Source: Haliotis rufescens (lineage: Eukaryota). Taken from it: 64,000 bases of DNA. The translations under genes and the position numbers were made by a program. The notes under the pieces are model-generated. The model was not told the DNA's origin and did no database searches. It saw nothing but the letters and a program-made list of their open reading frames with translations. Positions 3,771 to 32,972 of this stretch are shown here, in pieces. Every line of letters starts with the position of its first letter. Within the stretch, counting starts at the first letter, position 1. The stretch spans positions 1,240,001 through 1,304,000 of the forward strand of contig NW_025964376.1 in NCBI RefSeq assembly GCF_023055435.1. Reading direction: 5' to 3'.

Positions 3771-5749
3771 CAGAGATTTCCGATGACTATAGAAATGATG
3801 AAGGGTTTGTTGCCATCAACGTTGTCAAATTCATAATTATGATCAGGTAACAGCTTTGCTGTTTCACTTCAAATTTCGTTTACCAATTTATGTGGCACAT
3901 TTATAATATTTACCAGAAAATAATATCAGGCAGGCACTTTTTTATCGCAGAAAAACTTTATTAGGTCCATTATCCAATGCATAGTAATTCATTTGGTGGG
4001 TTATTATGTAGAATGACATTCAAAACGGAAAAGTGCAGCGCATGGATTCCCTGTTCAACCAACATACAAGTGATGAAAGTGCTGTCAACGGATCATTTTC
4101 TACTGTCACCACCCTCCAATCAAACTGTTTTTTATAACACTTCCATGAATTAACATTAAATAAGTATAGTTAACGTTTCGATTGTTTATAATGAATAACT
4201 GAATCTCAAAGGAAATATTCGTGGTCGTATGTGTATACTCTGAGGCAATATGAAGTGGTCTCTACACATTCAGGTTCATGATGAGCACCATGGATGTGAC
4301 AAAGTGGGTAATATAACGGCTACAACCTGTAGCTGTGTCATGTCATGGACTTTCTTACCACACAAAGCTGACAAGTGGTGGAATGATTGAAATAAGCACG
4401 ATATAAAGTTAAACACCAAATATATCATTCAGCGAACTGATATTCTCCTCTAGTTTGATGATTGAGTAACTGTACATTCAGATACTTCAGCACAACTCAC
4501 ATCTTCCATTATCGATTGTAACGCATGCGACGTCATGATATGACAATAATTTTCTGGAACAGAAATATATCGGTTACGAATATGAATCCATGACAGTTTG
4601 TACTGAACAGAAGCTCAATAAGCCCGTTATCCTTATGATAAATTTGACAACCACAAATCCATTTGGATCCGTACTTCTGCCCTATATGGGGTATGCATTA
4701 TGCATACAGACATCGCCACATGATGTGTGACCAGTACACTCAAAGTATTGACTTGTAAACTATCTGGTAGGACAGCTTTAGTAAGATTTAGAAACCGACC
4801 AAATGATATTCTGGGGGTGGGGTGAATTGTGGGGTGTGGGCAGGGATTTTATCCAAAACAAAATTGTCCAGACAATTCTTGAAATTAAATCAATTATCTA
4901 ATATGCTTCGGAGTGTTGAGAGAAAAGACATTGCCTGCAACAAAAAATACATTTGCGCAATGTTTTTCTTCTACAAAAGAAATCAAGGCTCAAAGTTTTG
5001 AAGAACAATATATATCTGGTTTGGAAGCTGTTCCTAGAAAAATCTATTCTCGATACAAAATCCCAGATATTGAAGGTCATAATCGTCCAGAAGCCAAAAT
5101 AGTGATTTAACGAACAACGGACGAAGGGACCTACTGAATTTAACTGAACTTTATACAATCAGGACGCATTCACTGTACACTATATACAATAGTACATCTG
5201 GTAGTCAACATGGTATACAAGTAATATATGCACAGTTGACATCACCATGATTTAAACTTAAACATGATTATTTTACAACATTTGAACAGTTTTCTCACTG
5301 CGGACACGGCGCCAAAGTATATCACTGCTGGTTCATCATATTAGAATATATATAACTGAAACAAGTGTAATAATGAACGTCTTCTCAAGAAGTCAATCAT
5401 GTAAAGATGGTTCAGTGTGGTCATATTAACTATCCATAATGGAATCTTTTGGGAATAGTAGAAGTTTAAAGATGCTGGTCACATATTAATCAAAGGCACA
5501 TACAGATCACTTGCATCATTCCCCAATTATTAACCGTCTTCAGAGACAGAAAACAGATATGCGTGTCTGGATGCTTCGCTCACTCGTAGAGGACATATTA
5601 GAAGCCTCGATGCTGATTAGAAAGTTCACATGACGCTACCTCCTATGGCAGTAATACACTCTTCAAAACAAAGAAACCCACTGGCAGTATGTAGTTCAAT
5701 GAACCTGACTACGCCATCAATCAGGTATATAAATTGGATGTATGTAATT

Positions 5750-5990
5750 GGATAAAACGCCGCCATTGTCGATTTGCAATGTCTTAAACGCCATTGTTTT
5801 CATATTTGTTAAAAAATGCAATGGACGAAAACAGTAAAGCAAAATGCACGTGCAAGTTATGGCATTCGTAACTCGTATCCAGTCAGTGCCGAAGAGATCC
5901 AGAGCCGTGATTGCTGCCCGGGGTGGTCACACGAGATACTGAGTTAAGCGCAACCTTGTGGCCTTATGTGACATGACAATGAACAGTTTT
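5750..5990 (+). mobile_element. Internally deleted Tc1-like remnant
   Basis: gccgtgattgctgcccggggtggtcacacgagatactga encodes the Tc1 C-terminus AVIAARGGHTRY*. Confidence 0.6.
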
Positions 5991-6797
5991 CAATGCCTTT
6001 GTACAACGAGAACATGTGACTTTCGTGCTCCAAAATGTCATATTTGTATCTATGATATTAAGTTAAATGTATCGACTGCATTAGACTTTATTATCTACCT
6101 GTGCGTTTCTTATTGTGAAGAGTGTATAGTTTCCGTTCGATCAGAAATAGACATTATTACAATATATACCCTTGTCTAACCGCTCATTGAACGTTTTACA
6201 GCACCAAATGTTACCATTTTCAGGTGTTGTTCCTAATGTAAGTATGTCATTATAATGTGAGTGATTGATTTATATGTATGGTTTCGCTCATTAATAATCA
6301 AACATCAAATGTGTTTCCTTAAGCGTATACTATCATATTACAAGTGAAATGTGCTGGATGAATATGATTTGACAAACGAATGGAATATTGGGTGAGTTGG
6401 TTAGTTTGACAGTATTACAATTATATATACATATAGCCGTATCAAATTCACGTTGGAGGAAAGCAAAAGTAGTGAAGACCAAAGGTTTAACATTTCTGTG
6501 TAACCAAAGAGAGTAGCCAGTGAGGTCTTGTACTAAAAATGGAGCCATACATATTTTGTATTCAAACCCTATTAGCAGATCCTGTCACGTCGAGGGAATC
6601 ACATCTGCATTCCGGGGCCTTAGACGAGAGAACAGTTATCAAAATATGAAAACTTCACAAAAGAGGAAATTGCCTTCTTGTTAATCTATGTCCTTAGTCC
6701 GTAACAGTTTTATACATATATACTCTAATTGATATTGAGTAACGGAGACATTTAACATAATCAACTTTACAAGTAAGTTAGAGATTTTCATTGCTCT

Positions 6798-6896
6798 AAG
6801 CAATATTCATGAAATGGGCTTCCGACTAGGGCCTTCACAAATTGTACCTGAACATTCAAACCCGGGTCTTCGGTGGGTCGTAACTAGGCTTCCCAA
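6798..6896 (-). mobile_element. Degenerate SINE fragment (13332 family) abutting minisatellite 1
   Basis: agcaatattca..ttcacaaattgtacc..aacccgggtcttcgg..actaggct resembles 13365-13490; absent from the paralogous site near 30050. Confidence 0.55.
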
Positions 6897-8813
6897 CTAC
6901 TGTACAGCTCATCGCCGTCCTACTGTACAGCTCATCGCCGTCCTACTGTACAGCTCATCGCCGTCCTGTACAGTTCCTCACCGCCCTACTGTACAGCTCA
7001 TCGCCGTCCTACTTTACAGCTCATCGCCGCCCTACTGTACAGCTCATCGCCGCCATACTGTACAGCTCATCGCCGTCCTACTGTACAGCTCATCGCCGTC
7101 CTACTGTACAGCTCATCGCCGTCCTACTGTACAGCTCATCGCCGTCCTGTACAGTTCCTCACCGCCCTACTGTACAGCTCATCGCCGTCCTACTGTACAG
7201 CTCATCGCCGTCCTACTGTACAGCTCATCGCCGTCCTGTACAGTTCCTCACCGCCCTACTGTACAGCTCATCGCCGTCCTACTGTACAGCTCATCGCCGT
7301 CCTGCTGTACAGCTCATCGCCGTCCTACTGTACAGCTCATCGCCGTCCTGTACAGTTCCTCACCACCCTACTGTACAGCTCATCGCCGTCCTACTGTACA
7401 GCTCATCGCCGTCCTGCTGTACATCTCATCGCTGTCCTACTGTACAGCTCATCGCCGTCCTACTGTACAGCTCATCGCCGCCCTACTGTGCAGCTCATCG
7501 CCGTCCTGTACAGTACCTCACCACCCTACTGTACAGCTCATCGCCGTCCTACTGTACAGCACATCGCCGTCCTACTGTACAGCTCATCGCCGTCCTTCTG
7601 TACATCTCATCGCCGTCCTACTGTACAGCTCATCGCCGTCCTACAGTACAGCTCATCGCCGTCCTACTGTACATCTCATCGCCGTCCTACTGTACAGCTC
7701 ATCGCCGTCCTGTACAGTACCTCACCACCCTACTGTACAGCTCATCGCCGTCCTGTACAGTTCCTCACCGCCCTACTGTACAGCTCATCGCCGTCCTGTA
7801 CAGTTCCTCACCGCCCTACTGTACAGCTCATCGCCATCCTGTACAGTTCCTCACCGCCCTACTGTACAGCTCATAGCCGTCCTGTACAGTTCCTCGTCGC
7901 CCTACTGTACAGCTCATCGCCGTCCTGTACAGTTCCTCACCGCCCTACTGTACAGCTCATCGCCGTCCTGTACAGTTCCTCACCACCCTACTGTACAGCT
8001 CATCGCCGTCCTGTAAGTTCATCATCGCCCTACTGTACAGCTCATCGCCGTCCTGTACAGTTCATCATCGCCCTACTGTACAGCTCATCACCGTCCTGTA
8101 CAGTTCCTCACCGCCCTACTGTACAGCTCATCGCCGTCCTGTACAGTTCCTCACCGCCCTACTGTACAGCTCATCGCCGTCCTGTACAGTTCATCGCCGT
8201 CCTGTACAGTTCATCGCCGTCCTGTACAGTTCCTCACCGCCCTACTGTACAGCTCATCGCCGTCCTGTACAGTTCCTCACCGCCATACTGTACAGCTCAT
8301 CGCCATCATGTACAGTTCCACACCGTCCTACAGTACAGCCCATCGCCGTCCTGTACAGTTCCTCACCGCCCTACTGTACAACTCATCGCCGTCCTGTACA
8401 GTTCCTCACCGCCCTACTGTACAGCTCATCGCCGTCCTGTACAGTTCATCGCCGTCCTGTACAGTTCATCGCCGTCCTGTACAGTTCCTCACCGCCGTCC
8501 TGTACAGTTCATCGCCGTCCTGTACAGTTCATCGCCGTCCTGTACAGTTCATCGCCGTCCTGTACAGTTCCTCACCGCCCTACTGTACAGCTCATCGCCG
8601 TCATGTACAGTTCCTCACCGCCCTACAGTACAGCTCATCGCCATCCTGTACAGTTCCTCGCTAGCCTACTGTACAGCTCATCGCCATCATGTTACAGTTC
8701 CTAACCACCCTTCTGTACAGCTCATCGCCATCATGTACAGTTCTTACCACCCTACTGTACAGCTCATCGCCATCATGTACAGTTCCACACCGTCCTTCAG
8801 TACAGTTCCCCAC
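6897..8813. repeat. Minisatellite 1, 23/20-bp units (TACTGTACAGCTCATCGCCGTCC / TGTACAGTTCCTCACCGCCC)
   Basis: About 1.9 kb of tandem units; a 43-bp dimer becomes dominant in the right half. Confidence 0.98.
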
Positions 8814-10183
8814 AGTCCTGTAAATCTTATGTGTTTTTTACGGCAGTAATTCAAAAACCGATTTGAACCCTTTTCATAATGATCATGCCACTTTTTTTCT
8901 TTGAAGCGTTGTATATTTGAAGCAGAAGATAAAAGTCGTGACCTTTTAAAACAGACAGTTTTGGGTAATAACAATGTTCGGTTTCGAGTTTCATTGAATC
9001 GCCACGACTCGTATTGCAGCTTTGTATTAATCGTCAGACAAAGTTATGCATCGTAAACAAACTTCATTATTGGAAAATCGTTAATCTGAAGAATAGCATT
9101 CACCTTCTAATCAAAACAGTAAATCCCCGTAATGGGGACAAACTCTGTCCGAAAGCCGTGACTGACACAAACAAAATTGAAATCATTATAGAAATGGAAA
9201 TGTCTACACAGTGCTCTTACAAAGAACATTCACATATATACATTCGTGGCTCAATGTCATATGAATTACGACACCACGATGTCTTACGTGGGTGAGAGAG
9301 AATCTGCTCTACCGGTGCCATCCGGCGTGTGTAGTAGATGGTCACTAGGTGGGGAACATAAACAAGTGTGAAGGAGTTGTCCCCTTTTGGCCATGACCAA
9401 ATAGGAACTTGACAATGAAGGGATGCAAATACTGCATGCACCGATGTGAGTGATGCGTAAACGAGGTGCAGTTCGTACTTGACTTGAAGCCTCAGCACAA
9501 AGATGACTGAAAGGGCAATGTCACAGACTTGACACATCTTTGAATTCGGATTACGTGAGTCCTGTGATGTTGTGCCTTGATTGAATACGCATCGTTCGTG
9601 TGTTGACATTAGTAGCTAATGATCTGAACCTGAAAAACCTTATCCTAAATATTTACCATGAGAAATAACGGCTTTTTGTCCTTTTTTAGAGATAATTACC
9701 TCACATACCGACTTTCTACGAAAACTGAAATCCAATACCCTCGTCAAATTCTTACACAATGAGCTAATAATACCCTTGCATGAATACATTTAAACACATG
9801 TATGGCAGCAGCACATTGTTTTCTCAAAAAGGGTGATTAAGCAAAATTATGCATTCTCTTGGAGGCTTCCGTGGGTCAGTTATTTAGAACACGCCGCCAT
9901 CAGACAGGCTACTTGGCACAACAAGACTTGCATGCAGGAGATTTCAATCCATCACACATCCCTTTATAATCAGTGGAGACTATCAGAGTTGCAGAGAACG
10001 TGATAGCACATACAGTTACAGTATGAGGTACAAGATTATAAACAGAGCTTGCCAGTGTATAATTAATTATTACAAGTATTATTTGTTTTTGTTCAATATG
10101 TTATGTTATGTAAAGATAAAGCTTACACAATTTACACATTTGACCTTCATTTCTTGACATAATTGACCTTCATGTCTATCTTC

Positions 10184-11830: not shown

Positions 11831-12037
11831 GGGGCGCAGGTGGCCCAGCAGAGTTGTGTCCTCGTAGCACGCCTGAAACCAATGGTAGTGGGTTCGAGTC
11901 CCAGGTCACCCGATTATGTATTTAGGTTTGGCAGCACTATACCAATCCTCGCGCGTATCCCCAAAGTAATCGTCTGAGACCTGCTTCACTTCGGGCTTTT
12001 CTCCAACATCTGATATAACCGGAATACTCACTCCTCA
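11831..12037 (+). mobile_element. tRNA-headed SINE, family A, degenerate
   Basis: ggtggcccag, B box gggttcgagtccc, body shared with 20447-20727. Confidence 0.75.
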
Positions 12038-12948: not shown

Positions 12949-13184
12949 GTGAGTAAGTGAGTGGGTTGGGTTTACGCCGCTTTTAACAGTATTCCAGTTA
13001 TATCACGGCGTGTCAGCTTAATGTGGGAGGAAAGCCCGAAGTGATGCTGACAAACCTAGAAACATAATCGGGGTGAACCGGGATTCGAACCTACAATCAA
13101 AGGTTTCTGGCGTGCCCAAGGGACGCAACTCTGCACAGCGAATCGCGGCGCCTTTGACGACTGGGCCACCCGTGCTCCCTGTAA
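12949..13184 (-). mobile_element. tRNA-headed SINE, family A, internal deletion
   Basis: Near-identical to 20447-20727; (CTCA)n tail; possible TSD atatctga. Confidence 0.9.
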
Positions 13185-13331: not shown

Positions 13332-13498
13332 GTGACTGAGTGAGTTTGGTTTAACGCCGCTATTAGCAATATTCAAGCAATAGCACGGCGGGGGACACCA
13401 TAAATTGGTTTCACACATTGTACCAATGTCGGGATACGAACCCGAAACTTCGGCGTGACGAGCGAACGCTTTAACCACTAGGCTACCCGACCGCCCCT
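13332..13498 (-). mobile_element. tRNA-headed SINE, family B
   Basis: A box tagcctagtgg, B-box-like gggttcgtatccc, (CTCA)n tail, 13-bp TSD aatcaccacgtta (13319-13331, 13499-13511). Confidence 0.93.
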
Positions 13499-14437: not shown

Positions 14438-15937
14438 AACTGACGTCCAAAAGAAACTTTACCAGAGTTTGAAATCACTCTTGCTCAAAAACAACAAAAC
14501 ATCCATGCATGAAGTAAAGTGTATTGAGAAGATCAATATATCAATATAATCAACACTGAAAATGACAACCATACCGCGACCGAGAATGACGTCAGAGCCC
14601 CCCAAAGTTGGGTGTGGTACAAAACTCGAGCCTATCATGGACAATAGGCAGAGTACATAAACAATCGCTCACGTTCAATAACAAGTCATTAGTAGCGTGT
14701 GTGACCACCAAATACCTCAATACGCGCAAACACTCTTCGACGCACAGAAAAAGTCAGTCGTCTGATGAGGTAACGTGGGATTTGACGCCATTCTTCTTGG
14801 TGGGCCAGGATCAGTTCTTGCCGGTTGGCTGGAGAGTGTGGTCGTTGTCGAACACGACGATCCATCAAGTCCCAGAGGTGTTCTATGGGGGACATGTCGG
14901 GTGAGCGTGCATGCCACGGCAGGTCGTTGACGTTGTTGGCTGCGAGGAAGTTAGTGACAATTCTGGCTGTATGGGCGCCAGCGTTGTCATGCTGATAATC
15001 GAAACCACGTGTCTGCTGTTGGAGAAATGGTAGGACAACTGGACGAAGAATGTTATCAATGTAACGCTGAGCTGTCAAGTTTCCGTCAACGATGACCAGC
15101 GGTGTCCTCTCCTGCCCACAGATCCCTCCCCACACCATGACACTCCCTCCTGCACGCAACACGCCGCCGTTCGTTCACCCCTTCGGTGGTAAACACGTTG
15201 TCTTCCATCAGCCCTAAACATACAGAATCGACTTTCGTCAGTGAAGACAACCCTCTGTCAGGCACGTCGTTGCCAACGTCGTACAGTCCGGACCCATCTC
15301 AATCGCAGACGACGATTTTGCGCTGTCAATAGCTGTCCTCTGTATGGTCTAAAAGCCCTGATTCCATGAGCCCTGAGTCTCATGGCCACTGTCTGTCGAC
15401 TAACCCTGTGACCTAAGGCATTTGTCGCCGATGACGTCACTGTCAGGAAGCGATTTCGGAGGTGCAAGGTACGCAAGTACCGGTCATCATGGGGCGTGGT
15501 CCACTGGGTCTGCCTGTTCTTGGCCTGTCAGCGGTCGGCCCTGTCTGTCTGTAACGTTGCATCAAGTTAGTAACGGCAACACGGGAGCAACCGAAGGTTC
15601 GTGCAATATGGGCGTGGGTGGCTCCCATCTGTACCATACTCAAGGCTCGTTCACGTTGTTCGACTGTGAGTCGTGGCATTTATTTTGTGTTTCTTTTTCA
15701 CTGTGGATGTCTGACTTGCCGTTGCAATCGTTTTATACCCCTTACCCGCACGTGCATTTGCAGTTGTCCGTGGTGCACGTGTTTTTCACTTTTTCGCGTG
15801 TTATCTCGCAAACATGTAACAGACGATTAACATTTCTGCATACACTATGTGTTTTAGATAGACCTCATCGAAAACAATTTTATACTTTGTCTGAGTTTTA
15901 TATTTTCAATTGGTAAAGTTTCTTTTGGACGTCTGTT
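14438..15937 (-). mobile_element. Tc1 transposon (DD34E), frameshifted transposase 14689-15679
   Basis: 27-bp TIRs (14438-14464, 15911-15937), TA TSD, motifs FTDESRF, HDNAGAH, SPDMSPIE with 34-residue spacing, GGHTRY*. Confidence 0.96.
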
Positions 15938-18606
15938 TATTTAGACAATATAAAAAGCTGTCAACGAAGAACAGTACAATAAGTAGAATATCACAGTGTC
16001 TATTTAAAACTAGCTGAGAATATATAAAAGTCATAAGTATTAGTGAACACCACAATGTAAAAATGGGCTAGAGATCGTCAGTAACTAAAGGGAGATCACC
16101 ATACTAGGGACCATGGGAACGTACAGTGCCTTTGCTTCCTGCATGGACCCTGCAGGATTTATATTATCCCTTCAGATCAGTCACTGGCGACAGTGTACCA
16201 ATTAAGCCAAAGATTAAAATGACGAATATTCTACATTTAAAAGCCTGGCATGCATAAAAATACGTCGAAAGATACGGGACTTACATCCCCTCTTAGGGGG
16301 ACAATAAGTTTACGCTACTTCAACCCCCTCGAGGGTACAGCCATTAACAATCTAAGTTATTAATTAGCACTACCAATTTTTAAAATCATACAGTGTGAAC
16401 ATCAAAATGTATATATTTATGTATAAGTTCTATTTCTTTAAAAAAAACATATTATTAAATGAGAATGAACTTTACTACAAAGGTCATTCACTGTTTTTAC
16501 ACTGAAATATTTATCCCTTATGATGGAAAAGTCAATACAGCCTTTCATCACAAGGATAAAAAACGGAGCATCCTCACTTTTTAACAGATACCCATGAGTA
16601 TAATCTAGAAGGGTAAATACGACATCGTCGCATAATGACCTCTTCACACCTGGACTGACAGCCCAAGTAGGAGTATCCAATATTTGGTTTAATTGCATGT
16701 AGTTTATTGATACCTACTTGGGTGTCCCACTTCTTTTGCATCAGATCACGGATGTAAGATCTAATTATAGGTTTATAATCATTGTATGGGATAAGAAGTG
16801 GTGTCATAGATTTATTGAGTGCTGCTTTTGCAGCAGCATCAGCCATTGTGTTACCAGTGATACCAACATGGCTTGGTAACCAACAAAAGACGATGTTGTA
16901 TTGGCCAGTAGCAAGATCATTAATTAACTCAAGAATTTCAATTAAAAATTGATTTTTACAAGACATATTTTAATAGCCATGAAGGCATGAAAGTGAATCT
17001 GAAAAAATAATGAATTCTTTATATTTGGATTTGTTCTTGATATATTTTAGAGCTGTTAAAATTGCGTGTGCTTCTGCTGTGAATATGGAACTATTAACGG
17101 GTAATCGTGAAGCTACTGTTCTTGATCCAATGACAGTGGAACTAGCAACTTCGTCACCATCCTTGGATCCATCTGTAAATATAGATTTATAAGTGTCATT
17201 AGTGTTGCGTAATTGATTGTATTCTTGTTTAAAAATTAGTGGATTTGTATCAGATTTCTTAAGTCTATTTAATGTGATGTCTACATTTGGCCTTACCATT
17301 TGCCAAGGTGGCGATGAAAATAGTTGTTTGGGAGCTATATCCTGAAAGTTAATCTTAGCAGCAGAAACGACATATTTAATTCTTATTCCAAGTGGTGGAA
17401 TAAGAGATGTTTTCTTATTGTAAATATCTACGTAAAGAGGATTAAAAACGCAGTTAAAAGCCGGATTTGACTGATTAGAATATAATTTAGTGATGTATTG
17501 TAAAGGTAATTTCAGATGGCGTTGTTTAGGAGAAGGTGCAACAGACTTGGAATAGGAGAAGTGCGAAAGGCTCTAAGACAAAGCCTCGGACCTTGGTGAT
17601 GGATAGTATCTAGTCTTTGAAAATAACTTTTACATGCTCCACCATAGACGATGGAGCCGTAATCAAGTTTGGAACGGATCAGTGATTTATATGCAAGTGT
17701 ATGCGGTAAGAAAGTTAGATGGCTGTCAAAAATAAAACCCGAGAACTTTGCCTCCTTTACCACTTTGATAGGGCTGCCATTCAGTCTTTATGTGGCTTAT
17801 ATTTTCTGCAGAAATGTATACAACTAGTTTTTGATTTAGAGAATTTAAACCCATTTTCAAGGGACCACTTGTGAATTTTATTGAGACAGATTTGTAACTG
17901 CCTCACTGTGGTATGCATATTTTTACCACGACAAGATATATTAAAATCATCCACGAAAAGTGATCCATCCACTGAAACCTTTGACAGACTATTTATTTTA
18001 ATACTAAACAAGGTAACAGACAAAATACTGCCTTGTGGGACACCCTACTACTGATTATAATGGCCAGACAGGGTGGTTCCCTCTCAAACCTAAATCATGA
18101 AAATCCTTTAAAATACCATGCTTCCAGGTAGTATCGTATGCTTTCTCAAGATCAAAGAAAATTGAAACTTCGTGTTGTTTATCTACAATAGCATTTTTAA
18201 CAAAGGATTCTAATCGTACTAAATGATCAATAGTACTTCTATTCTTCCGGAAACCACATTGAGTATTAGAAAGATGACTGTTGGTTACCAAAAAACATAC
18301 TTATCTATCATTTATTATTCGTTCGATGGTTTTGCAAACACAACTGGTTAATGATAAAGGGGGGTAATTTAAGGGATCTGCATAATCCCGTCCAGGTCTT
18401 TGTATCGGGACCACAATAGCACAACAAGTGTTGTGTTCGGCAAAAGGAACACTGTTCATGGAACCAGTGCCCTCAACCACCAGAATCCCTTCCTCCGCCG
18501 ACACAGGGGCGCAACCAACGGCAAACGGGTTGCCCAATTCGGTCGCCTTTTACGACCAGCAATGGGGTGCCGAGGACACATTCTACCCTGGGTTCACACG
18601 GGGGAA

Positions 18607-18661
18607 GAGCTGTTAGCGTTACCCAGCACTCACCACGGGGAGATTGCTCATCACGAATGCC
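18607..18661 (-). ncRNA. Compact HDV-like ribozyme at 5' end of minus-strand LINE
   Basis: GGCAUUC-GUGAU-GAGCA-AUC-UCCCCGU-GGU-GAGUGCU-GG-GUAAC-GCUAA-CA-GCUC; G1 abuts the TSD. Confidence 0.8.
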
Positions 18662-18797: not shown

Positions 18798-19699
18798 AAC
18801 TCAACTGTGTCAATTTCGCAAGAGTTGAAGCTCATCTGTGTCAAATGTGTCAAGAGATGAAGGTCAACTGTGTCAAGAGATGAAGATCAACTGTGTCAAG
18901 AGACGACGCTCAGCTGTGCCATTTGTGTCGAGAGATGAAGGTCAACTGTGTCAAGTCAAGACATGAAGCTCAGCTGTGTCATCTGTGTCAAAAGATGAAG
19001 TTCAACTGTGTCAAAGTGATGAAGCTCAACTCTGTCAACTGTGTCAAAAAATGAAGCTCTACTGTGTCAAGAGACGACGCTCAGCTGTGTCTTCTGTGTC
19101 AAGAGATGAAGTTCAACTGTGTCAATTGTGTCAAGAGGTGAAGCTCAACCGTGTCATCTGTGTCAAGAGATGAAGCTCAACTGTGTCAATTGTGTCAAGA
19201 GGTGAAGCTCAACTGTGTCATCTGTGTCAAGAGATGAAGCTCAACTGTGTCATCTGTGTCAAGAGATGAAGCTCAGCTGTGACAGCTGTGTCAAGAGATG
19301 AAGCTCAACTGTGTCAATTGTGTCAAGAGATGAAGCTCAACTGTGTCAAGTCAAGAGATGGAGCTCAAATGTGTCATCTGTGTCAGGGGATGAAGCTAAA
19401 CTATGTTAATTGGGTCAAGAGATGACACTCAACTGTGTCAACTGTGTCAAGTGATGAAACTCAGCTGTGTCAACTGTGTCAAGAGATGAAGCTCAACTGT
19501 GTAAAAAAGAGATGAAGCTCAACTATGTCAACTGTGTCAAGTGATGAAACTCAGCTGTGTCAACTGTGTTAAGAGATGAAGCTCAACTGTGTAAAGAAGA
19601 GATGAAACTCAACTGTGTTAAATCAAGTGATGAAACTCAGCTGTGTCAACTGTGTCAAGAGATGAAGCTCAGCTGTGTCAAATTGTGTCAAGAGATAAA
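18798..19699. repeat. Minisatellite 2, left part (AAGAGATGAAGCTCAACTGTGTC[AACTGTGTC], 23/32-bp units)
   Basis: Direct read; continues at 25778 after the LINE insertion. Confidence 0.97.
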
Positions 19700-19754
19700 G
19701 GCACTCGTTGAGAGCAATCTCCCCGTGGTGAGTGCTGGGTAACGCTAATAGCTC
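19700..19754 (+). ncRNA. Compact HDV-like ribozyme at 5' end of plus-strand LINE
   Basis: GGCACUC-GUUGA-GAGCA-AUC-UCCCCGU-GGU-GAGUGCU-GG-GUAAC-GCUAA-UA-GCUC; starts where the satellite stops. Confidence 0.82.
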
Positions 19755-20352: not shown

Positions 20353-21690
20353 ATGTCGCTTACCCATTCTGGCTCCGTTAGAAATGACAAGAAAAGGAGA
20401 TTAGAGGCTGATCATCTCTCATATCATGAAGATGTATCAGTTTCAATTGGATGAGTGAGTTGGGTTTAACGCCGCTTTTAACAGTATTCCAGTTATATCA
20501 CGGGGTGTCAGCTTAATGTGGGAGGAAAGCCCGAAGTGATGCAGGTCTCAGACGTTTACCACTTCGGTGAAACCCACGAGCACGGGTATGGTGCTGACAA
20601 ACCTTGAAACATAATCGGGGCGAACCGGGATTCGAACCCACAATCAAAGGTTTCTGGCGTGCCCAGGGGACGCAACTCTGCAGTGCGAATCGCGGCGCCT
20701 TCGACGACTGGGCCACCCGTGCCCCCTTATCAGTTTCAAAACCAGAAACCAGAAACTTGGGCCAAGTTTATAGTCATTGAATCTACAAATGGAGATCCAC
20801 TTAAAATCAATCCTTTTGTTATCTCAAAGACAATTCAGTCTATCTGTGGTGAAGTTAAGAAAGTTTCACGTCTCCGAGGCGGTTTGCTCCTTGTTGAGTG
20901 TGCCAAACGGCAACAATCTATAAATTTGTTATAACAACATCAATTTGCAAACATCAGTGTTGCTGTTTCAGCGCACAAAACACTAAACTCTAGTAGAGGC
21001 ATTGTTAGAGACAGAGCCCGTTGTCTGGTGGACATGTCTGAGGAAGAAATAGTTTCCGAACTTAAAGACCAAAATGTCACTTCTGTTAAACGCTTCACTG
21101 TCAAGAAACAGGATGGTAGAATTAAACCCAGCAACACCTACCTGTTTACATTTGCTTTGTCTACTGTACCCAAATCAATAAAAGCTGATTATTTCAATAT
21201 CGGGGTGGAGGTGTATATCCCCTCTCCACTCCGATGTTATACATGTCAATAGTTTGGGCATGGTTCCAAATCCTACCGTTTCTCTCATCGTTGTCACCGC
21301 TGCAGTGAGGATCATCAGGACTCTGATTGCACTAAAGATCCTAAATGTGCAAATTGCAGTGGTGACCATCTGTCATCCTCTAAATCTTGCCCTGAGTGGC
21401 AGATTTAAACAAAAATCCTAAAATTAAAATATGAAACCAATATCCCTTTCAATGAAGCTAAATAACACATTCTAAGTCAGACTCCAGCAAAGTAATCTAC
21501 TACTATCTCCTACTCAGCTGCTGTCTCAAACAAACTAAAATCGGTTTCTATTTCGTGCCAAATAGATTTGACGTGGATTAGGTACCTGTAACTGTTGAGG
21601 TTCATAACTCATTTGACCCTCTGGAGATGGAGATGGAGTTGTCCGTTTTCCTCACGTGGCCGTGAGAGATCCCCCATAGAACCTCCATGA
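20353..21690 (+). pseudogene. LINE ORF1 (gag-like), disrupted
   Basis: INPFVISKTI..LRGGLLLVEC; PLRCYTCQ*FGH..RCHRCSEDH..KCANCSGDH..CPEW; SINE insertion and stops. Confidence 0.88.
20447..20727 (-). mobile_element. tRNA-headed SINE, family A, full length, inside LINE ORF1
   Basis: A-box-like gtggcccagtcg, B box gggttcgaatccc, 12-bp TSD tatcagtttcaa (20435-20446, 20728-20739). Confidence 0.95.
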
Positions 21691-24600
21691 ACCAATATCA
21701 TTTAGCGGAATTCCAGAGGATTGAGGAATAATTCTAATGAAGTACAGTTATTAGCACAAGATTATAAACCATCAGCATTTAGATTGCAGGAAACGTATCT
21801 TAAGCAAACTGATAAATTTGAAATGCGTCAGTACAATTCATACAATTCTTTTTCCCCAACAGGTGATAAAGCTGGGGGTGCTTCAATTTTGGTGAGGCAG
21901 GGCATTATCCACAGCCCTGTTTCTCTTAACTGTAATCTTCAGGCTGTTGCTGTCCGTCTTACCTTACACATAACCTTCACACTTTGTTCATTATATATTT
22001 CTCCATCCTCGAATCTTCAGCAGTCCGATCTTCAGGATTTATTTGACAAGCTCCCAAAGCCCTGTATCACAATGGGTGATCTTAATGGACATAACCCTCT
22101 ATGGGGAAGTTCCAATACTAACAATAAAGGGAAAATCCTTGAAGATTTTATTTCTAATAATAATCTATGCATATTCAACGACGGCTCGAACACAAATTTA
22201 CATCCTGCAACTGGTACATATGCTGCTTTAAATCTGTCAATCACAGATTCTAACATATATAATGAATTTGAATGGTCAGTCCATGATGACCTTTGTGGAA
22301 GTGATCATTTTCCAACAGTAATTACAGCTGTAAATCCCACTGATGCTCCACCTTCAACACGGTGGGATTTTTCAAAGGCCGATTGGCCATTATTTCAGAC
22401 TATATGTACTGACAAATTGAAACCAAACCTTTTCATGGATGTACCTGTTTCAATTAAATCATTCTCTGACAAACTGAAGAACATAGCTGATGAAACTATT
22501 CCTAAGTCCTCTATGAACCCACATATTCGGAAACCGTGGTTTAATTACGAATGCAAACAAGCTAGGAAGCGTAGGAAGAAGGGAGAGACATATGTTCGAC
22601 GCCATCCTACTGTACATAATTTAAACAATGTCAAAATCAATTCTGCCAAAGCTCGACGAACCTTTAAACACAATAAACGTCAGTCTTGGAAGAATTATGT
22701 TTCTTAAATAAATTCACGCATGCCTATGTCTAAGGTATGGAACATGATCCAAAACATCAAAGGCAAAGGTTCCAAAACTAATATTCGTCATTTAAAAGAT
22801 GACAATAATTTATTGACTGAAAAATCAGATATTGCAAATAAATTGGGCGAAACTTTAGCTAAACATTCTTCTTCGTCAAATTATATTCCAATGGCGAAGA
22901 TAATAATGAAGTTTTTTCACTACATGAACTACACACTGCGTTAGCACAAGTTCATGATACTGCAACTGGTGCTGATGATATTCATTATCAGCTCTTAAAA
23001 CACTTGCCTGAATCTTGTCTCACAACACTACTGAATATTTTTTATGATATTTGGACAACAGGACATTTTCCCCCTCCATGGAGAAATGCTATAGTTGTAC
23101 CCATACCAAAACCTGGCAGGGATCATACAGATCCATCAAATTATCGACCTATTTCATTAACTAGCTGTGTTTGTAAAACCATGGAGCGCATAGTAAATAG
23201 TCGATTAGTTTGGTTTTTAGAAGCCAATAATCTGATTAGTAACATCCAATACGGTTTCCGTAAAATCCGAAGTACAATTGACTATTTGGTTCGTTTAGAA
23301 TCATTTATTAAAAATGCTTTTGTAAATAAACAGCATGCTGTATCTATCTTTTTCGATCTTGAAAAAGCCTATGATACCACTTGGAAGCATGGTATTTTAA
23401 AAGATTTACATGACTTTGGTTTAAGAGGCCGCTTGCCTCAATTTATATCACAGTTTTTAACAGACAGACAATTTCAAGTTCGTGTTGGATCAACCCTGTC
23501 TGATCATTTTAATCACAGGGCACTATCACTTGGAAACATGGTATTTTAAAAGATGTACATGACTTTGGTTTAAGAGGCCGCTTGCCTCAATTTATATCAC
23601 AGTTTTTAACAGACAGACAATTTCAAGTTCGTGTTGGATCGACCCTGTCTGATCATTTTAATCACAGGGCAGTTTGTTTAGCATCCAAATAAATAGTTTT
23701 TCTAAAGTATTAAATGACTCAATAGATGGGTCATTGTTTGTGGATGGTTTTAATATTTCATGCCGTGGTAAAAATATGCATACCATTGAAAGACAGTTAC
23801 AGTTGTGTCTTAATACAATTAATAAATGGTGTCTTGAGAATGGATTTAAGTTTTCACAGACCAAGACAAATTGAATACATTTCTGTCGGAAATATAAACC
23901 CCATAAAGACCCAGAGCTCTCTTTAGATCGCACTCCAATTAAGGTTTCAAAAGAGGCCAAATTCTTGGGATTGATTTTCGACCACCATTTGACGTTTTGG
24001 CCACATATCAAATATTTAAAGACTAAATGCCTGAAGGCCCTAGATTTGTTGAAAGTCGTCTCGAATTCTAAGTGGGGGTGGGGGATCAGACAACTCTCCT
24101 TCACTTATATCGATCATTAATCCGCTCTTAATTGGATTATGGCTCCATTATGTATGCTGGAGCTTGCAAGTGTAATTTAAAAAAGCTAGATTCAATCCAC
24201 CATCAAGGACTTAGACTGTGCCTTGGTGCTTTTAGAACTTCTCCTGTTGACAAGGTCGTATCAAATTGTCTCTTCAATATATCACTAAATTACACTCTAA
24301 TCCTTCTAATCCTGTTTATGACTCTGTTTTTCATCCCCTATATGAAGAACTGTTTCAGAAAAAAACAAAGCTGGTTCCACCACTTGGAATTCGGATCAAA
24401 TCAAATATTATGGCTGCAAATATAGATCTAGATAAAATCTCACCATATCGTCTCTTGTCTACAAATCCCTGGCAGCTGGTGAGGCCAGAAGTAGACGTTT
24501 CTCTGAACCGTTTTATTAAATCTGACACAAATTAACTTATAATTCAACAGGAGTATGTACAATAAGGAAAGAAATATGACACTCACCGTTCCATCTTTAC

Positions 24601-25296
24601 TGATGGATCCAAGGACGGTGGCAAGGTGGCATGTGCCACTGTCGTTGGATCAAAACATTTATCATCTAAAATACCAGACAATAGCTCTATTTTCACTGCT
24701 GAGGCCAATGCTTTTCTTACAGCCTTAGTATACATTCAACGACAGTCTGCATATAAACAATTTATCATCTTTTTTTATTCTCTTTCTTGTCTTCAGGCAC
24801 TGAAAAAAGTCTCTTCTAATCATCCAATTATTTTAGATATTTTAGAACTTTATAATGATCTTTCAACTGGCCAATATGACATCGTCTTTTGTTGGTTGCC
24901 CAGTCATGTGGGCATAAAAGGCAACACATCCGAGATCTTGTGCAAAAGAAGTGGGACACCCAAGTAGGTATAAATAAATTACAACAAATTAAGCCAACCA
25001 TCGGTTACACCTTCTTGGGTTGTCAGTCCAGATTGGAAGAGGTCATAATGCGACGATGTCGTATTGGCCACAGCAGGTATACACATGAACATGTACTGAA
25101 AGGTGGGGATCCTCCATTTTGCATCCCTTGTGATGAGAGAATCACGGTCAAGCATGTCCTGCTTGACTGTATTGATTTTGCCATCACAAGGGATAACTAT
25201 TTCAAATCATCATCTCTTAAGGATCTTTTTAATAGTATTAGTTGTCATTTAGTTACGGGATTTTTAAAAGAAATAGAACTTATTGATAAATTTTGA
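21687..25296 (+). pseudogene. LINE ORF2 (APE endonuclease, RT, RNase H, zinc finger), disrupted
   Basis: LQET, GDLNGH..WG, GSDHFP; YRPISLTSCVCK, FFDLEKAYD; FTDGSK, WLPSHVGIKGN; CIPC..HVLLDC. Confidence 0.95.
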
Positions 25297-25777: not shown

Positions 25778-27840
25778 GTCAAGAGATGAAGCTCAACTGT
25801 GTCATCTGTGTCAATGAGATGAAGCTCAACTGTGTCAACTGTGTCAAGAGATGAAGCTCAACAGTTTTAAGAGATGAAGCTCAGCTGTGTCAACTGTGTC
25901 AAGAGATAAAGCTCAACTGTGTCAAGAGATGGAGCTCAACTGTGTCTGCTGCGTCAAGAGATGAAGCTCAAAATGTGCCAAACTGATGAAGCTAAACTAT
26001 GTCAATTGTGTCAAGAGACGAAGCTCAACTGTGTCATCAGTGTCAAGAGATGCAGCTAAGCTATGTCAATTGTGTCAAGAGATGAAGCTCAACTGTGTCA
26101 ACTGTGTCAAGAGATGAAGCTCAACTGTGTCAACTGTGTCAAGAGATGAAGCTCAACTGTGTCAACTGTTTCAAGAGATGAAGCTCAACTGTCTCAATTG
26201 TGTCGTGAGATGAAGCTCAACTGTGTCATCTGTGTCAAGAGATGAAGCTCAACTGTGTCAAGAGATGAAGCTCAACTGTGTCATCAGTGTCAAGATACGA
26301 AGCTCAACTGTGTCTGCTGTGTCAAGAGATGAAGCTCAACTGTATCAACTGTTTCAAGAGATGAAGCTCAACTGTCTCAATTGTGTCGTGAGATGAAGCT
26401 CAACTGTGTCATCTGTGTCAAGAGATGAAGCTCAACTTTTTTAAGAGATGAAGCTCAGCTGTTTCAAGAGATGAAGCTCAACTGTTTTAAGAGATGAAGC
26501 TCAACTGTTTCAAGAGATGAAGCTCAACTGTTTTAAGAGATGAAGCTCAGCTGTGTCAACTGTGTCAAGAGATGAAGCTCAACTGTGTCAAGAGATGAAG
26601 CTCAACTGTGTCAACAGTGTCAAGAGATGAAGCTCAACTGTGTCAACTGTGTCAAGAGATGAAGCTCAACTGTTTTAAGAGATGAAGCTCAACTGTTTCA
26701 AGAGATGAAGCTCAACTGTTTTAAGAGATGAAGCTCAACTGTTTCAAGAGATGAAGCTCAACTGTTTTAAGAGATGAAGCTCAACTGTGTCAACTGTGTC
26801 AAGAGATGAAGCTCAACTGTGTCAACTGTGTCAAGAGATGAAGCTCAACTGTGTCAAGAGATGAAGCTCAACTGTGTTTGCTGTGTCAAGAGAAGAAGCT
26901 CAACGGTGCCAAAGTGATGAAGCTCAACTGTGTCACTTGTGTCAAGAGATGACGCTTAAGTATGTCAATTGTGTCAAGAGATGAAGCTCAACTGTGATTG
27001 CTGTGTCAAGAGATCAAGCTCAATTGTGCCAAAGTGATGAAGCCCAGCTGTGTCAAGTGTGTCAAGAGACGAAGCTCAACTGTGTCAACTGTGTCGAGAG
27101 ATGAAGCTCAGCTGTGTCAATTGTGTCAAGAGATGAAGCTCAACTGTATCAATTGTGTCAAGAGATGAAGCTCAACGTCTACTTCTGGCCTCACCAGTTG
27201 TCAGGGATTTGTAGACAAGAGACGAAGCTCAACTATGTCAATTGTGTCAAGAGATGAAGCTGAAGACATGTTTTGATCCAACGACAGTGGCACATGCCAC
27301 CTTGCCACCGTCCTTGGATCCGTCAGTAAAGATTAAACGGTGAGTGTCATATTTATTTCTTAATTGTACATATTCCTGTTGAATTATAAGTTGATTTGTG
27401 TCAGATTTAATAAAACGGTTCAGATAAACGTCTACTTCTGGCCTCACCAGCTGCCAGGGATTTGTAGACAAGAGATGAAGCTCAACAAGGTCAACTGTGT
27501 CAAGAGATGAAGCACAGCTGTGTCAACAGTGTCAAGAGATGAAGCTCAACTGTGTCAATTTTGTCAAGAGATGAAGCTCAACTGTGTCATTTGTGTCAAG
27601 AAATGAAGCTCAACTGTGTAACAGTGTCAAGAGACGAAGCTCAACTGTGTCATCTGTGTCAAGAGATGAAGCTCAACTGTGTCAAGTCAAGAGATGAAGC
27701 TCAACTGTTTCAACTGTGTCAAGAGATGAAGCTCAACTGTGTCAAGTCAAGAGATGAAGCTCAACTGTTTCAACTGTGTCAAGAGATGAAGCTCAACTGT
27801 GTCAAGAGATAAAGGTAAACTATCAAAAGGTCAACTGTGT
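25778..27840. repeat. Minisatellite 2, right part, containing two antisense LINE fragments
   Basis: Same units as 18798-19699; non-unit inserts at 27174-27225 and 27268-27475. Confidence 0.97.
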
Positions 27841-30800
27841 ACTCAATACCGTAATAGTGTCTGTTCTCACTTTCCAATAGAAATCACACAGAGACTGTTG
27901 ATGGATTACAAAGGGCTTTGTGATGGATTGAAACCTCCCACGAGAAAGTCGTGTTGTGCCTAATGGGCTGTCTAATGGCCACAGTTTCAAATAATTGACC
28001 CACGGAAGCCCACAGGGGAATATATAAATGTGCTTAAGGAACCTTTATTGAGTAAACAATGAATTTCTGCCATATATCTGTGTCATATTGTATTCATACA
28101 AGGGTATTATTGGCACAGAATTTGCCAAGGGCCTCGGATGTCAGTAAGTGTAAGTTAATTATCGATAAACAATGAAGATTTTTATTTTTTCTCATGGTCA
28201 GTATTGAGGTTTGGGAGTCATAAGATGCTGATGTCATCACACGTAGGATGCGTATTCAATCAAGGCACATTCACAGGACTCACAAAATCCGAATTCAAAG
28301 ATGTGTCAAGTCTGTGACACTGCCCTTTCAACCCGGCTTTACATCTTTAAGCTATGGCCAATACACACTGCACCTCGTTTGCCCATCACTCATCTTATAT
28401 TTCAATCTCTTCAGTGTCAAGTTCCTATTTGGTCATGGTCACTTGCCGCTGTTCCCCAAGGGACAATTGCTTCACATTTAACGACTTTCATTATGTTTTA
28501 TGTTCCCTAGCTATATACAAATCCCAAGCTGTGGTGATAAGTTTGTATATGTAACAACAGCACTGGTTCAATAGGTTGCATACTGGGATAATTGCTACAT
28601 AAACTTGTCCATTGAATAAACCGTTACCAGCAAAAAGGAAAATTCAATTTCTAAAACATTTTCACCATGGCGAACAATGTGACTTAATGAATAACACTAT
28701 TGTGGCAATAGCTCCAACTAAAACAAATCAAATTCGGAAAAAAGTACGAATGCAGAAACATAAAAAAATAAACATTCACCGTTCAAGTTGACTTAAATTT
28801 TCGATCAATAACATGAAAGAAACGGATGTTCCAGTGAAGTTTTTCAGTTTCCTGTTCTTTATTTTTATCCAATCAAGATTAGCTCCGAAGCGCGGCAGAG
28901 CTCATGACATTAGAGGGAGTAAAGCATGATCCCTAATGGTTTTAAATGTAACGCGATGGGTAATTCAATAATGTTCACCTAGAGAACTATTAATGATTTT
29001 CAATTTTGTTTGTGTCAAGCAGGGATTTCGGGAATATTCTGTATGAACGTGTTGCTTTAAAGCGTCTTATACGGGGTTAATAAGAACACTACAATTAGTT
29101 CAATTTTTAAGAAAGCGCTTAATGGGATTATTTGATCACGTTAATCCTACTCCGAATACTCAGTGATAGCCTTAATCCTGGGAGCAGAGAACAGCTAACT
29201 ATATCAGAATGGTCATTACCATCAAAAATATCGATCACTTTTCTGAAAGTAAAACTATGCAAGTAGGATTATAATGTAGATTGGCAATTAATGGAAAGTT
29301 TAAATTAGCGCTATCCCCAATAACAAAATAACAAAAACATTAATACGGTCCTTCCACGTGGCTCTCTGGCACATAAAACTCCGGACAACACTAATGACTG
29401 GCGAACCCTTTACACGCTGCAGGGATGTTCTCGTTGCACATCGGGGCAGTCGGCAGAAGTGTTCTATTAGTCTGATGGAACGATCGCTGGTTGACAGAAC
29501 CGCGGCAGCATTCTGTTAGAAGGCAGGAACAGGTATCGCCATGTAAGTACATAGCACAATATGATGCGTTCTGTACCTCCATGTTCAAAGGAACGGAACC
29601 TTTTTACATAAATTCATGTTTTTTCTTACTACTTATGTTGTCAAGTTTATTCCTTTGAATTGCATAACTGTATTACTTCCTGAACTGATTTACCAATGTG
29701 TTGATTAGATGGTGAATGTGTTGTTCTTCAGATTAAGGACTTCCCAACAATGAATTTTTCTCATGTATATATGCGATGTATAAAATGGTCTTGCGATTAG
29801 AGTATGGTTGTAATACGAGTAGTTTCGACACCGAACATTGTTACTACCCTATATTGTCTGTTTTAGAAGGTTACCACTTTTATCTTATACTTCATATATA
29901 AGACACTTCAAAAGAATTAAGAAACTTTAAATCGGTATTCCTGGAGTGCCATGATCATTTTTAAAGGGGGTCAATTCGTATTCTAAAATATTGCCGTAAA
30001 AAGCATATCACATTTACAGGACTTGTGGGGAACTGTACAGTAGGGCGATGAAAATCTCTACTTACTTTTAATGTTGATATGTGACTCAAATTATGTGAAA
30101 TGTTTCCGTTACTCAATGTAAATTTGAGTATTGTATAAAACGGCGAGGGACTAAGGAAACATATATTATTAAACCTGAAGGCAATTTCTTGAAAATTTGT
30201 CGTCCAAGGCGCCAGAACTTCCGTGCAGATTTGATACCCTTGCCGTGACAGGATCCGCTTATCGGGTATGAATAAAATGTGTGGCTCCATTTTGAGTGCA
30301 CTACCTGAATGGGTGTGCTTCGAGGTTTTACAGAAATGTTAAGCCTTTGTTTTTCTTCCCGTGTGCTCCATTACCCGCCCCCACCCCAACCACCCACCAA
30401 CGCCCCCCACCTTCCTCCCCACCCACTTGAATTTTAAACGCCATTCACTCAATATACCATTTGTTTATCAACTCATATTCCGCCAGCACATTTCACTGGT
30501 AATATGATATACAATGTACACTTCAGGAAATATATTTGATGATGAATGAGAAAAACATATAAATATATAATCATTTACATTACAAATGTCATACTTATTT
30601 TGCAAAAAAACATTTCTGAACAAAGCCTGAAACATGATTACATCATGTGCGGTGAAACGTTTAATGAGCGATTGATAAACTATATTATTGTTAAAGTGTA
30701 TCTATTGCTGATCAAAAGGAAACTACATTGAACTAACCCCCAGAGGTAGGCCGCCAACAGATACTTTTTTCAAAAACAAACTGATCATATACATGTATGT

Positions 30801-32753
30801 GCCCGGATAAAAGAGTGTATTTTAAAGGAAGAGAGGAAGCTAGCACCGTCGTGTTCTACACTACTAATAGTTGTATCCATCGGAATTTATCTATGTAATC
30901 GACATCGTACCGCAGCTGACATCGCGGATGGTCTGGCAGTGTACTTTCGTTCTTTCCTGGACATAATAATCCATTCCAATTGCGTTACGTATGTACACTA
31001 TCCGTGTGACAATATAACTTACAATATTACTCACTTGATAAGAGCGAACGAGTGGTCAAGTTGTCTGGCCTTCGCACGTCACTCTGCAGATGTGCGTCCA
31101 AGGGCATGACGGGATCGAGGAACCATGGGTCCGAATCCCAAAGTAACTCTCTCCGTGTTCTTACCTAACCCGTGATCGTGGGTTTCACCTAACATAACTG
31201 GCCTGCAAAATGTCTACAGATTCAGTGACGACACATGGTCTCAATGTCTGCTCTCAAATAACAACAGTCTGGTTTGGATCATGATTCCTGCCGTTCCGAT
31301 ACGCCTCGGGTACATGTAATTTTATTTGCCCTTTTGCTCTTATTCCCAAGACGTATTTGTTAGCTTATTCAAGCTGTGTATCCTAACATTAGTTGAACAA
31401 ATGGCATGGCCAGAAGCCCTTTTGTTGCAGTTTAGATAGCATCTTTATATTCGCTGTGGTCTCACTTTACGGTTGGCGACACTCTCTGAACGCCATTAAA
31501 ACAAATGTAACACTTATGGCAATGTTGAAGAAGGATTTGTAAAGGTATGGTTTAAAAAGATAACCCATTTTATTGTTAGACAAAGACATTGATATAGTGC
31601 ATATGGAGTGAATGTTGTTTGACACAACAGTCAGCAATATTCCAGCTACATCATGGCTGCCTGTTAATAATCCAGTTAGGACAAGGAAATTGAAGACCCA
31701 AGGCATTGGCAACGTTCGATGTCATTGGGCGCGACATGCAATTAACCAAGCTACTGAATTTTACGACCATATCGATTTTGAATGAATCTTTCTCACTGAA
31801 TGTACACATCGAATGTACCACAAACATATCCATATCCATTGTGTGGATTTACCTGATCAACAGCTTACATGGCTTAACACTCACTGAATACATTGTTTAT
31901 CCAGCGCGAGTGCATCCATGCCAAAAGAAAGTGAGTTAGGAAATCTGTGAAATGCATGTTTGAACAGTGTTTCAGTCATATCATGAGGTGTCAGCTTAAT
32001 GTTAGTGGAAAGCTCACAAGGACGCAATGTCATTAAATTCGGATTTGTTATACTCCGATACTATACCTCCAAAGGAGGTCGCGTCATGTGAACTTTCTAA
32101 TCAGCGTCGATGTTTCTAAATTCTCCTGTACGAGTGAGCAAATTAGTCAGACACGCATGTCTGTTTTCTGTACCTTGAAGACGGTTATACTTGGGGAATG
32201 ATGCCGTTCTTCATGTGCCTTTAATTATTATTATTATGTGACCAGCATCTTTTACACTTCTACAATTACAATTCCCTACAGATTCCATTATAGAAAGTCA
32301 GTATTACCACACTGCACCATCCTTCCATGATTGACTTCTTGAGAAGACATTCATTATTACACTTCTTTCAGTTATAATATATGTTCTAATATGATCAGCC
32401 AGCAGTGAATATACTTTGGCGCATTGAGAAAACTGTCCAAATTTTGTAGAATAATCATGTTTACGTTTAACACATGGTGAAGAAATATAAACTGGTTGAT
32501 GTTAACGGTGCAAATAATATTTGTAATCCATGTTGATTCCCAAATGTACAGTTGGAATATTGTACCAATGAATGTGGCCTGATTGTATAAAGTTCAAATT
32601 CAGTCGGTCCCATTGTCCGTTTTTTTGTTAAATCACTACTTCGGCTCATGGGAGATTATGATCTGGAGTAATATTACGACTTTCACACATGAAAGCTGTT
32701 TGTAGTTAGTTCCTCTCCTCCTCACCATAGGCAGGTCAATGTCGAAGATGAGA

Positions 32754-32972
32754 GGGGGCACGGGTGGCTAAGTCGTCTAAGGCGCCGCGATGAGCTGTGC
32801 AAAACACTCCAGAATCCTATGATTGTGGGTTCGAAGCCCGGTTCGCCCCGATTATGTTTCTAGGTTTGTTAGCACCATACCCGTGCTCGTGGGTTTCACC
32901 GAAGTGGTAAACGTCTGAGACCTGTATCACTTCGGACTTTCCTGCCACATTAAGCTGACACGCCGCGATATA
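32754..32972 (+). mobile_element. tRNA-headed SINE, family A, 3'-truncated
   Basis: gggggcacgggtggctaagtcgtctaaggcgcc, B-box-like gggttcgaagccc, family body. Confidence 0.9.

What the first reader, a model, noticed from the sequence alone, without database searches (positions are those of the whole stretch)
6897..8813. Birth of minisatellite 1: the single-copy seed survives in the paralogous arm
Seen: the paralogous site reads (reverse complement of about 30012-30059) agagattttcatcgccctactgtacagttccccacaagtcctgtaaat, one unit only. The left arm has the same flanks (gagattttca near 6781; cagttccccacagtcctgtaaat near 8803) around about 1.9 kb of units, plus a SINE fragment inserted right at the seed. 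The unit holds the palindrome CTGTACAG and the array grades from 23-mers to a 43-bp dimer. Inference: the SINE insertion or its TSD may have nucleated the expansion.
Basis: partly seen in the sequence, partly recalled or inferred. Interest (0 to 1): 0.7.

Follow-up and report, generated by a model that had tools for sequence, protein, structure and literature searches.

The report
Minisatellite grown from a SINE head
A 1.9-kb tandem repeat found at this one spot starts exactly at the front end of a decayed jumping element (a tRNA-derived SINE) and is likely made of copies of that front end plus a few flanking bases, while the matching site in a nearby inverted duplicate is likely a deleted remnant rather than an untouched one-copy seed; repeats born from SINEs are already known.

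Summary
The array (6897-8825, about 88 units of 23 and 20 bp, grading into a 43-bp dimer) and the inverted paralogous arm (81-86% identity in blocks) are real. The unit occurs only here (47 of 47 hits). The decayed SINE is real (E 8e-9), but its alignment begins inside the flank shared with the other arm, so that arm is probably not a pre-insertion site. It holds about two unit-like pieces, not one. The B unit resembles the SINE's 5' end (69 of 100,000 random 23-mers, 799 of 100,000 shuffles score as high). The same SINE head is duplicated at 9 other loci, 5 of them arrays. Best reading (0.6): the SINE inserted and its head plus target duplication doubled before the inverted duplication; the right arm then lost the SINE body and the left arm expanded. 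Main rival (0.25): an array born from a chance proto-repeat, later hit by a tail-less SINE; a precedent exists (L083). No outgroup was obtained, so expansion versus collapse is not polarised. New member of a known kind (SINE-derived satellites). Earlier scan notes on other DNA of this genome describe related cases (a minisatellite in a dead Tc1, a SINE chain), not this one.

The parts
5074..9971 (+). Left arm of an old inverted duplication (five homologous blocks)
   Evidence: no third copy found in G000
27904..32664 (-). Right arm of the inverted duplication
6762..6771 (+). Possible left copy of the SINE target-site duplication (8/10 to the array core; 6/10 at the same place in the right arm)
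   Evidence: null 0.006 over 12 offsets; inferred
6771..6798 (-). Flank shared by both arms (25/28 after one gap) that resembles the SINE's 3' tail in the register set by the SINE body
   Evidence: inferred tail
6799..6898 (-). Decayed SINE body and head, 75-83% identical to the family consensus depending on gap costs; the last few bases of the head are missing
6897..8817 (+). Minisatellite of about 88 units: A type (23 or 20 bp) and B type (23 bp), A23-rich on the left, 43-bp A20-B23 dimers in the middle, most diverged units on the right
8798..8825 (+). Terminal degenerate unit and last core, shared with the right arm
30012..30068 (-). Right-arm site: tail-like flank, B-like piece, intact core (30040-30033), second head-like piece, degenerate core; no SINE body
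13335..13497 (-). Young full-length copy of the same SINE, used as reference (tRNA-like head 13428-13486)

Best explanation
The array starts exactly at the 5' end of a decayed tRNA-derived SINE and is likely a run of copies of that end plus about 10 bases of target-site duplication, and the matching site in the inverted duplicate is likely a remnant that lost the SINE body. Inferred order: (1) the SINE inserted with a target duplication; (2) head plus duplication was doubled at least once; (3) about 5 kb or more was duplicated in inverted orientation; (4) the right arm deleted the SINE body between tail and a head, which are similar in register, keeping about two head-like pieces; (5) the left arm grew by slippage and unequal exchange, with 20/23-bp variants and a 43-bp higher-order unit. 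Shown: positions, unit structure, SINE identity, the similarities. Inferred: every step of the order.
For: The SINE profile alignment starts at 6781 and its envelope at 6771, inside the shared flank. The shared 28-mer scores 6.4 bits (right) and 4.9 bits (left, one gap removed) on a profile of 48 SINE tails; background fractions 4e-4 and 8e-4. The B unit scores 13.2 bits on a profile of 37 SINE heads; 69 of 100,000 random circular 23-mers and 799 of 100,000 shuffles of B reach this. The terminal unit is also head-like (9.3 bits, background 2e-4). The A-to-T change in the left copy's head recurs at the start of B and of the terminal unit (read). A target-duplication-like 10-mer lies upstream (8/10, null 0.006). 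Precedent in this genome: 26 matches at 9 loci show the head duplicated; 5 of 9 are arrays of about 6-45 units. L112 has the proposed seed layout (duplication, SINE, duplication, second head) and 3 of the 5 arrays have no SINE body in the 3 kb fetched. 29 of 30 head-selected copies keep their tail.
Against: The tail-like flank matches the consensus tail at only 13/23, less than the body (75-83%), and the right arm matches the B unit better (16/23). Split up, the first 18 bases give only about 3 bits (background 0.6-0.8%). The head at the first junction lacks about 5 bases that B has, so an extra deletion is needed. The A unit, 37 of 83 regular units in its commonest form, is not head-like (0.3 bits in register). 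A search for an exact tail-to-head collapse gave 2 hits, and both were full-length SINEs. 3 of 30 SINE copies sit inside unrelated tandem repeats, and one of them (L083) lacks the tail and starts at model position 32, as the left body would. The tail and duplication tests were chosen after seeing the sequence. No outgroup.
Confidence: 0.6

Rival explanations
1. Array first, SINE later. The ancestral site was a chance proto-repeat of two to three imperfect units, which the right arm still shows. The left arm duplicated a 23-bp stretch between short direct repeats and expanded, and a tail-less SINE later landed in the leftmost unit. The SINE did not nucleate the array.
For: A contiguous 23-mer of the right arm (30051-30029) matches a rotation of B at 22/23. 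The right arm has three cores in register. SINE copies sit in tandem repeats in 3 of 30 cases and L083 is a tail-less example. B and A contain the motif that lies upstream of the SINE body in the left arm, so the first doubling would precede the insertion.
Against: It needs three coincidences: B resembling the head of the very SINE next to it (7e-4 to 8e-3), a tail-like flank in register (about 7e-3 for the first 18 bases) and a duplication-like 10-mer (6e-3). Only 1 of 30 copies is tail-less.
Confidence: 0.25
2. Sub-case of timing, compatible with the best explanation: the array already had three or more units, perhaps many, when the arms split, and the right arm lost SINE body and units together or collapsed later. 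The right arm is then a remnant of an array, not a seed.
For: 55 of 83 regular units carry C at position 9 and T at position 11 of the 12-base variable part. This is intermediate between B (C, C; 25 units) and the terminal unit shared by both arms (A, T; 1 unit), which by parsimony implies a third lineage before the split. A and B differ at 4 of 23 sites, close to the 14-19% arm divergence.
Against: A recurrent C-to-T change or a short conversion gives the same pattern. Units are young among themselves: mean distance to the nearest unit is 0.06-0.75 per 20 bases. 4 of the 9 head duplications elsewhere are short.
Confidence: 0.4
3. An old head-derived repeat without SINE body, like L110, L117 and L118, predated the duplication. 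In the left arm a break was later repaired on another SINE copy, using the head and tail similarity, which wrote a patchy SINE body into the first unit.
For: Body-less head arrays exist (3 of 5). It explains the head-like unit, the unit-like flank (16/23) and the indel-rich body (5-8 blocks).
Against: It needs two SINE events at one spot, and it leaves the tail-like repeats and the duplication-like 10-mer unexplained.
Confidence: 0.12

Closest known systems
SINE-derived satellites (sSats) of squamates, Vassetzky et al. 2023, PMC10702118 (abstract, section 5 and Discussion read; figures and supplements not seen)
   Same: Tandem units taken from part of a SINE, with a longer terminal unit that continues to the SINE's end. 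Some units are the 5' part plus about 30 nt of unknown origin (sSat3Gja2). Alternating subvariants occur in long loci.
   Different: In the variants whose lengths I read, units are 67-215 bp and often shared by many loci. Here the unit is 20-23 bp, single-locus and decayed, the extra bases are likely the target duplication, and a paralogous arm keeps a short version.
Alu-, B1- and LTR-derived minisatellites and the Haber-Louis short-direct-repeat model (as summarised in PMC6947457 and PMC3389668; passages read; the original papers were not read)
   Same: A first doubling between short direct repeats or from a mobile element, then growth by slippage, conversion or unequal exchange. PMC3389668 reports that 23% of human minisatellites derive from mobile elements.
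   Different: In the passages read, those units come from the element's own sequence; here the unit likely straddles the element's 5' junction.
Bivalve SINE tandem arrays TSD1-(SINE-TSD1)n in Scapharca broughtonii, PMC11481361 (passages read)
   Same: Units made of SINE sequence plus its target duplication in a mollusc; unequal recombination between duplications is proposed there.
   Different: Those units are near-whole SINEs; here only about 13 bases of the head are repeated.

Membership tests
tRNA-derived SINE (the family of 13335-13497) | tRNA-related head | tested here: met
   Rfam tRNA 29.6 bits, E 2e-4, at 13428-13486 minus
tRNA-derived SINE (the family of 13335-13497) | High copy number, simple-repeat tail, target-site duplications | tested here: met
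   27,202 exact hits of a 25-mer; tail kept in 29 of 30 copies; a shared flanking word of 6 or more bases found in 24 of 30, some of the shortest probably chance
tRNA-derived SINE (the family of 13335-13497) | The left-arm insert belongs to this family | tested here: met
   Profile hit 6781-6898, model 13-158 of 163, E 8e-9
tRNA-derived SINE (the family of 13335-13497) | The left-arm copy has its own tail and target duplication | tested here: inconclusive
   Tail 13/23, 4.9-6.4 bits; duplication 8/10 left, 6/10 right
Named mollusc SINE families (MESC, LP, Vhc; PMC4758252) | Central conserved domain matches a named family | not tested
   Passages read; consensus sequences are in figures that are not held, and supplements were not opened
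SINE-derived satellite or minisatellite (sSat) | Repeat unit similar to part of a SINE | tested here: met
   B unit 13.2 bits on the head profile, p 7e-4 to 8e-3; A unit not similar. Met for B only, at moderate significance
SINE-derived satellite or minisatellite (sSat) | Longer terminal unit continuing to the SINE's terminus | tested here: met
   The SINE body abuts the first unit at 6897-6898; about 5 head bases are missing at the junction
Widespread satellite or element-borne multilocus repeat | Unit present at many loci with unrelated flanks | tested here: not met
   47 of 47 exact 17-mer hits in this array; 16 of 17 one-mismatch hits at the two arms; 18 of 18 DNA matches here
Haber-Louis birth between 5-10 bp direct repeats | Unexpanded ancestral site with short direct repeats around one unit | tested here: inconclusive
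   The right arm has imperfect cores 23 and 21 bp apart, but it is not shown to be ancestral; no outgroup

The most novel reading that the evidence does not exclude
The GC-rich tRNA head of this SINE is a recurring nursery of minisatellites: head-plus-flank doublings grow into long arrays while doublings inside the SINE stay at two copies, arrays can shed the SINE body, and this locus preserves an old example with both the grown and the cut-down form 23 kb apart. In support, 5 of 9 head duplications are arrays against 0 of 6 internal ones (Fisher p 0.044), from one head pattern and one control pattern.
Probability: 0.3. Interest if true: 0.5.

Novelty: new member of a known kind. Interest (0 to 1): 0.33.

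Why it matters
If the best reading holds, this is an old example of a minisatellite born at a SINE's 5' junction, and the genome holds younger stages of the same process: two-head seeds, arrays beside an intact SINE, and arrays without a SINE body. With about 27,000 or more copies as denominator, birth and growth rates could be measured. It also shows that a short paralogous site cannot be taken as the ancestral state without an outgroup. The process is known from reptiles, mammals and bivalves, and no gene or function is affected here as far as tested.

Tried and rejected
Outgroup by sequencing runs: one search (window 4900-6900, DNA runs, library word PACBIO) listed none. That means none was listed, not that none exists; no reads could be laid. 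Two metagenome scans for the shared site gave 0. Third copy of the arm: none in three genome searches or in 264 kb around the window; the other 38 of 40 scored matches cover only about positions 447-575 of the query, a dispersed repeat. These searches score only the best candidates. Widespread satellite: rejected. Coding function: the long frames across the array follow from stop-free units; frames over the conserved arm blocks are full of stops and the 132-aa frame at 9220-9615 has no Pfam hit. Tail-to-head collapse as a common event: 0 of 2 hits. A degenerate pattern meant to cover both arms was out of register and gave nothing new. The Fisher test used 10 loci by miscount and was redone with 9. 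The Taylor and Breden paper was not held, so it is cited only through PMC3389668. Earlier-note look-ups near the locus and by words gave nothing.

Full report
Observation. TRF places the array at 6897-8805 with periods 23, 43 and 66. Splitting at the 8-base palindromic core gives 86 cores and 85 intervals: 50 of 23 bp, 32 of 20 bp and three irregular ones. There are two unit types, A (23 or 20 bp) and B (23 bp), differing at 4 of 23 sites. A23 dominates the first 800 bp and is absent after about 7700, where A20-B23 dimers take over; the last bin has the most diverged units. The quoted right-arm sequence is present. The arms are five inverted blocks, 5074-9971 against 32664-27904, 81-86% identical in gap-free blocks.

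Copy number. All 47 exact hits of a 17-base unit pattern in the 1.33-Gb genome lie in this array, and 16 of 17 one-mismatch hits of the seed pattern lie in the two arms. No third copy of the arm was found. So the array is single-locus and the genome offers no internal outgroup. Earlier notes of this scan call the genome abalone; I did not test that.

The SINE. A young copy at 13335-13497 has a tRNA head on the minus strand, and a 25-mer of it occurs 27,202 times. A profile from 30 copies hits 6781-6898 at E 8e-9, so the array begins at the SINE's 5' end. The alignment starts inside the flank that both arms share, and the arms still match at 17 of 19 positions up to 6798. The shared 28 bases score 4.9-6.4 bits as a SINE tail, a level reached by 4-8 in 10,000 background positions. 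A 10-mer just upstream matches the array core at 8/10 in the left arm (null 0.006) and 6/10 in the right, which is where a target duplication would lie.

The unit. The B unit's best 13-mer scores 13.2 bits on a profile of 37 SINE heads; 69 of 100,000 random genomic 23-mers and 799 of 100,000 shuffles of B score as high. The terminal unit shared by both arms is also head-like in the left arm (9.3 bits) and weakly so in the right (2.8 bits). A is not head-like. So B reads as 13 bases of SINE head plus 10 flanking bases.

The right arm. It is not one unit. In register with B it gives 16/23, 15/16 and 6/8: a tail-like or unit-like piece, an intact core, a second head-like piece and a degenerate core. 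A contiguous 23-mer matches a rotation of B at 22/23; at 19% divergence that has probability 0.05. If the unit comes from the SINE head, a site with two head-like pieces cannot be the empty pre-insertion site, and the simplest account is loss of the SINE body after the duplication (inference).

Precedent in the genome. A pattern for the head followed within 4-30 bases by a second head gave 26 matches at 9 loci, control 0. Five are arrays: 34 bp x 35, 40 bp x 6, 34 bp x 17, 34 bp x 33 and a 22-bp unit x about 45 (44 bp x 22.4 by TRF); four are short. L112 shows duplication, SINE, duplication, second head, which is the proposed seed. Three of the five arrays have no SINE body in the 3 kb fetched. 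The same kind of pattern for an internal segment gave 6 loci, all of two copies; 5 of 9 against 0 of 6 gives Fisher p 0.044. This is one pattern and one control, exact matches only.

Against this reading. The tail-like flank matches the consensus at 13/23, while the body is 75-83% identical. About five head bases are missing at the first junction. An exact tail-to-head collapse was not found: 2 hits, both intact SINEs. Three of 30 SINE copies lie inside unrelated tandem repeats, and L083 lacks the tail and starts at model position 32, a real precedent for a tail-less SINE in an existing array. The tail and duplication tests were post hoc. Weighing these by judgement, not by a fitted model, I give SINE-first 0.6, array-first 0.25, repair on another SINE copy 0.12.

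Timing. Whether the array was long when the arms split is open. Of 83 regular units, 55 carry a two-site state intermediate between B and the shared terminal unit, which hints at three or more units before the split, but a recurrent change or short conversion would do the same. The one run search listed nothing and two metagenome scans found nothing, so no outgroup was seen.

Comparison. SINE-derived satellites with a longer terminal unit, extra bases of unknown origin and alternating subvariants are described in squamates (PMC10702118; abstract, section 5 and Discussion read). SINE-plus-duplication arrays are described in a clam (PMC11481361; passages). Mobile-element-derived minisatellites and the short-direct-repeat model are reviewed in PMC6947457, PMC3389668 and PMC9659126 (passages). 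Four literature searches (listings only for papers not named above) showed no paper on head-derived minisatellites of this SINE; the library lacks most subscription journals, and supplements were not opened. Verdict: a real locus and a new member of a known kind; the SINE link is likely, the pristine single-copy seed is not supported.

Noticed in passing
L110 = G000:C17:607540-610593; L115 = C68:416093-419152; L117 = C68:31920199-31923252; L118 = C124:14488807-14491859; L135 = C575:527496-530537: Five young minisatellites whose units contain this SINE's head (22-40 bp, about 6-45 copies); three have no SINE body in the fetched stretch.
   Followed up: partly
L110:1967-3054: A second array (16/23/39-bp periods) beside the head-derived one; its unit resembles an internal stretch of the same SINE by eye.
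   Followed up: no
L060, L061, L083: 3 of 30 SINE copies sit inside unrelated tandem repeats (39, 31-32 and 32 bp); L083 lacks the tail.
   Followed up: partly
window 18800-19700 and 25778-27805: A second minisatellite (23/32-bp units) present at two sites in the same orientation; the first is flanked by an inverted pair, 18426-18661 against 19925-19700, 83% identical.
   Followed up: no
window 15980-18421 against 25701-23087; 21706-23549: Two decayed LINE copies in inverted orientation, about 70% identical; endonuclease (PF14529) and reverse transcriptase (PF00078) frames; a 149-bp tandem duplication at 23378-23671.
   Followed up: partly
window 37630-38715 (+): Open frame of 361 aa for a rhodopsin-type seven-transmembrane receptor (PF00001, E 7e-17).
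   Followed up: partly
window 33324-34367 (-) and 14689-15174 (-): Broken Tc1-like transposase frames (DDE_3 hit for 33324-33779).
   Followed up: partly
window 11848-12009, 12956-13180, 20452-20727, 32753-32973, 60201-60349: A second SINE-like family that shares the tail of the family studied here; one of its internal words looks like the A unit by eye, untested.
   Followed up: no
window 24448-24658 against 27478-27268: A 211-bp inverted copy (95%) of LINE sequence interrupts the second minisatellite.
   Followed up: no
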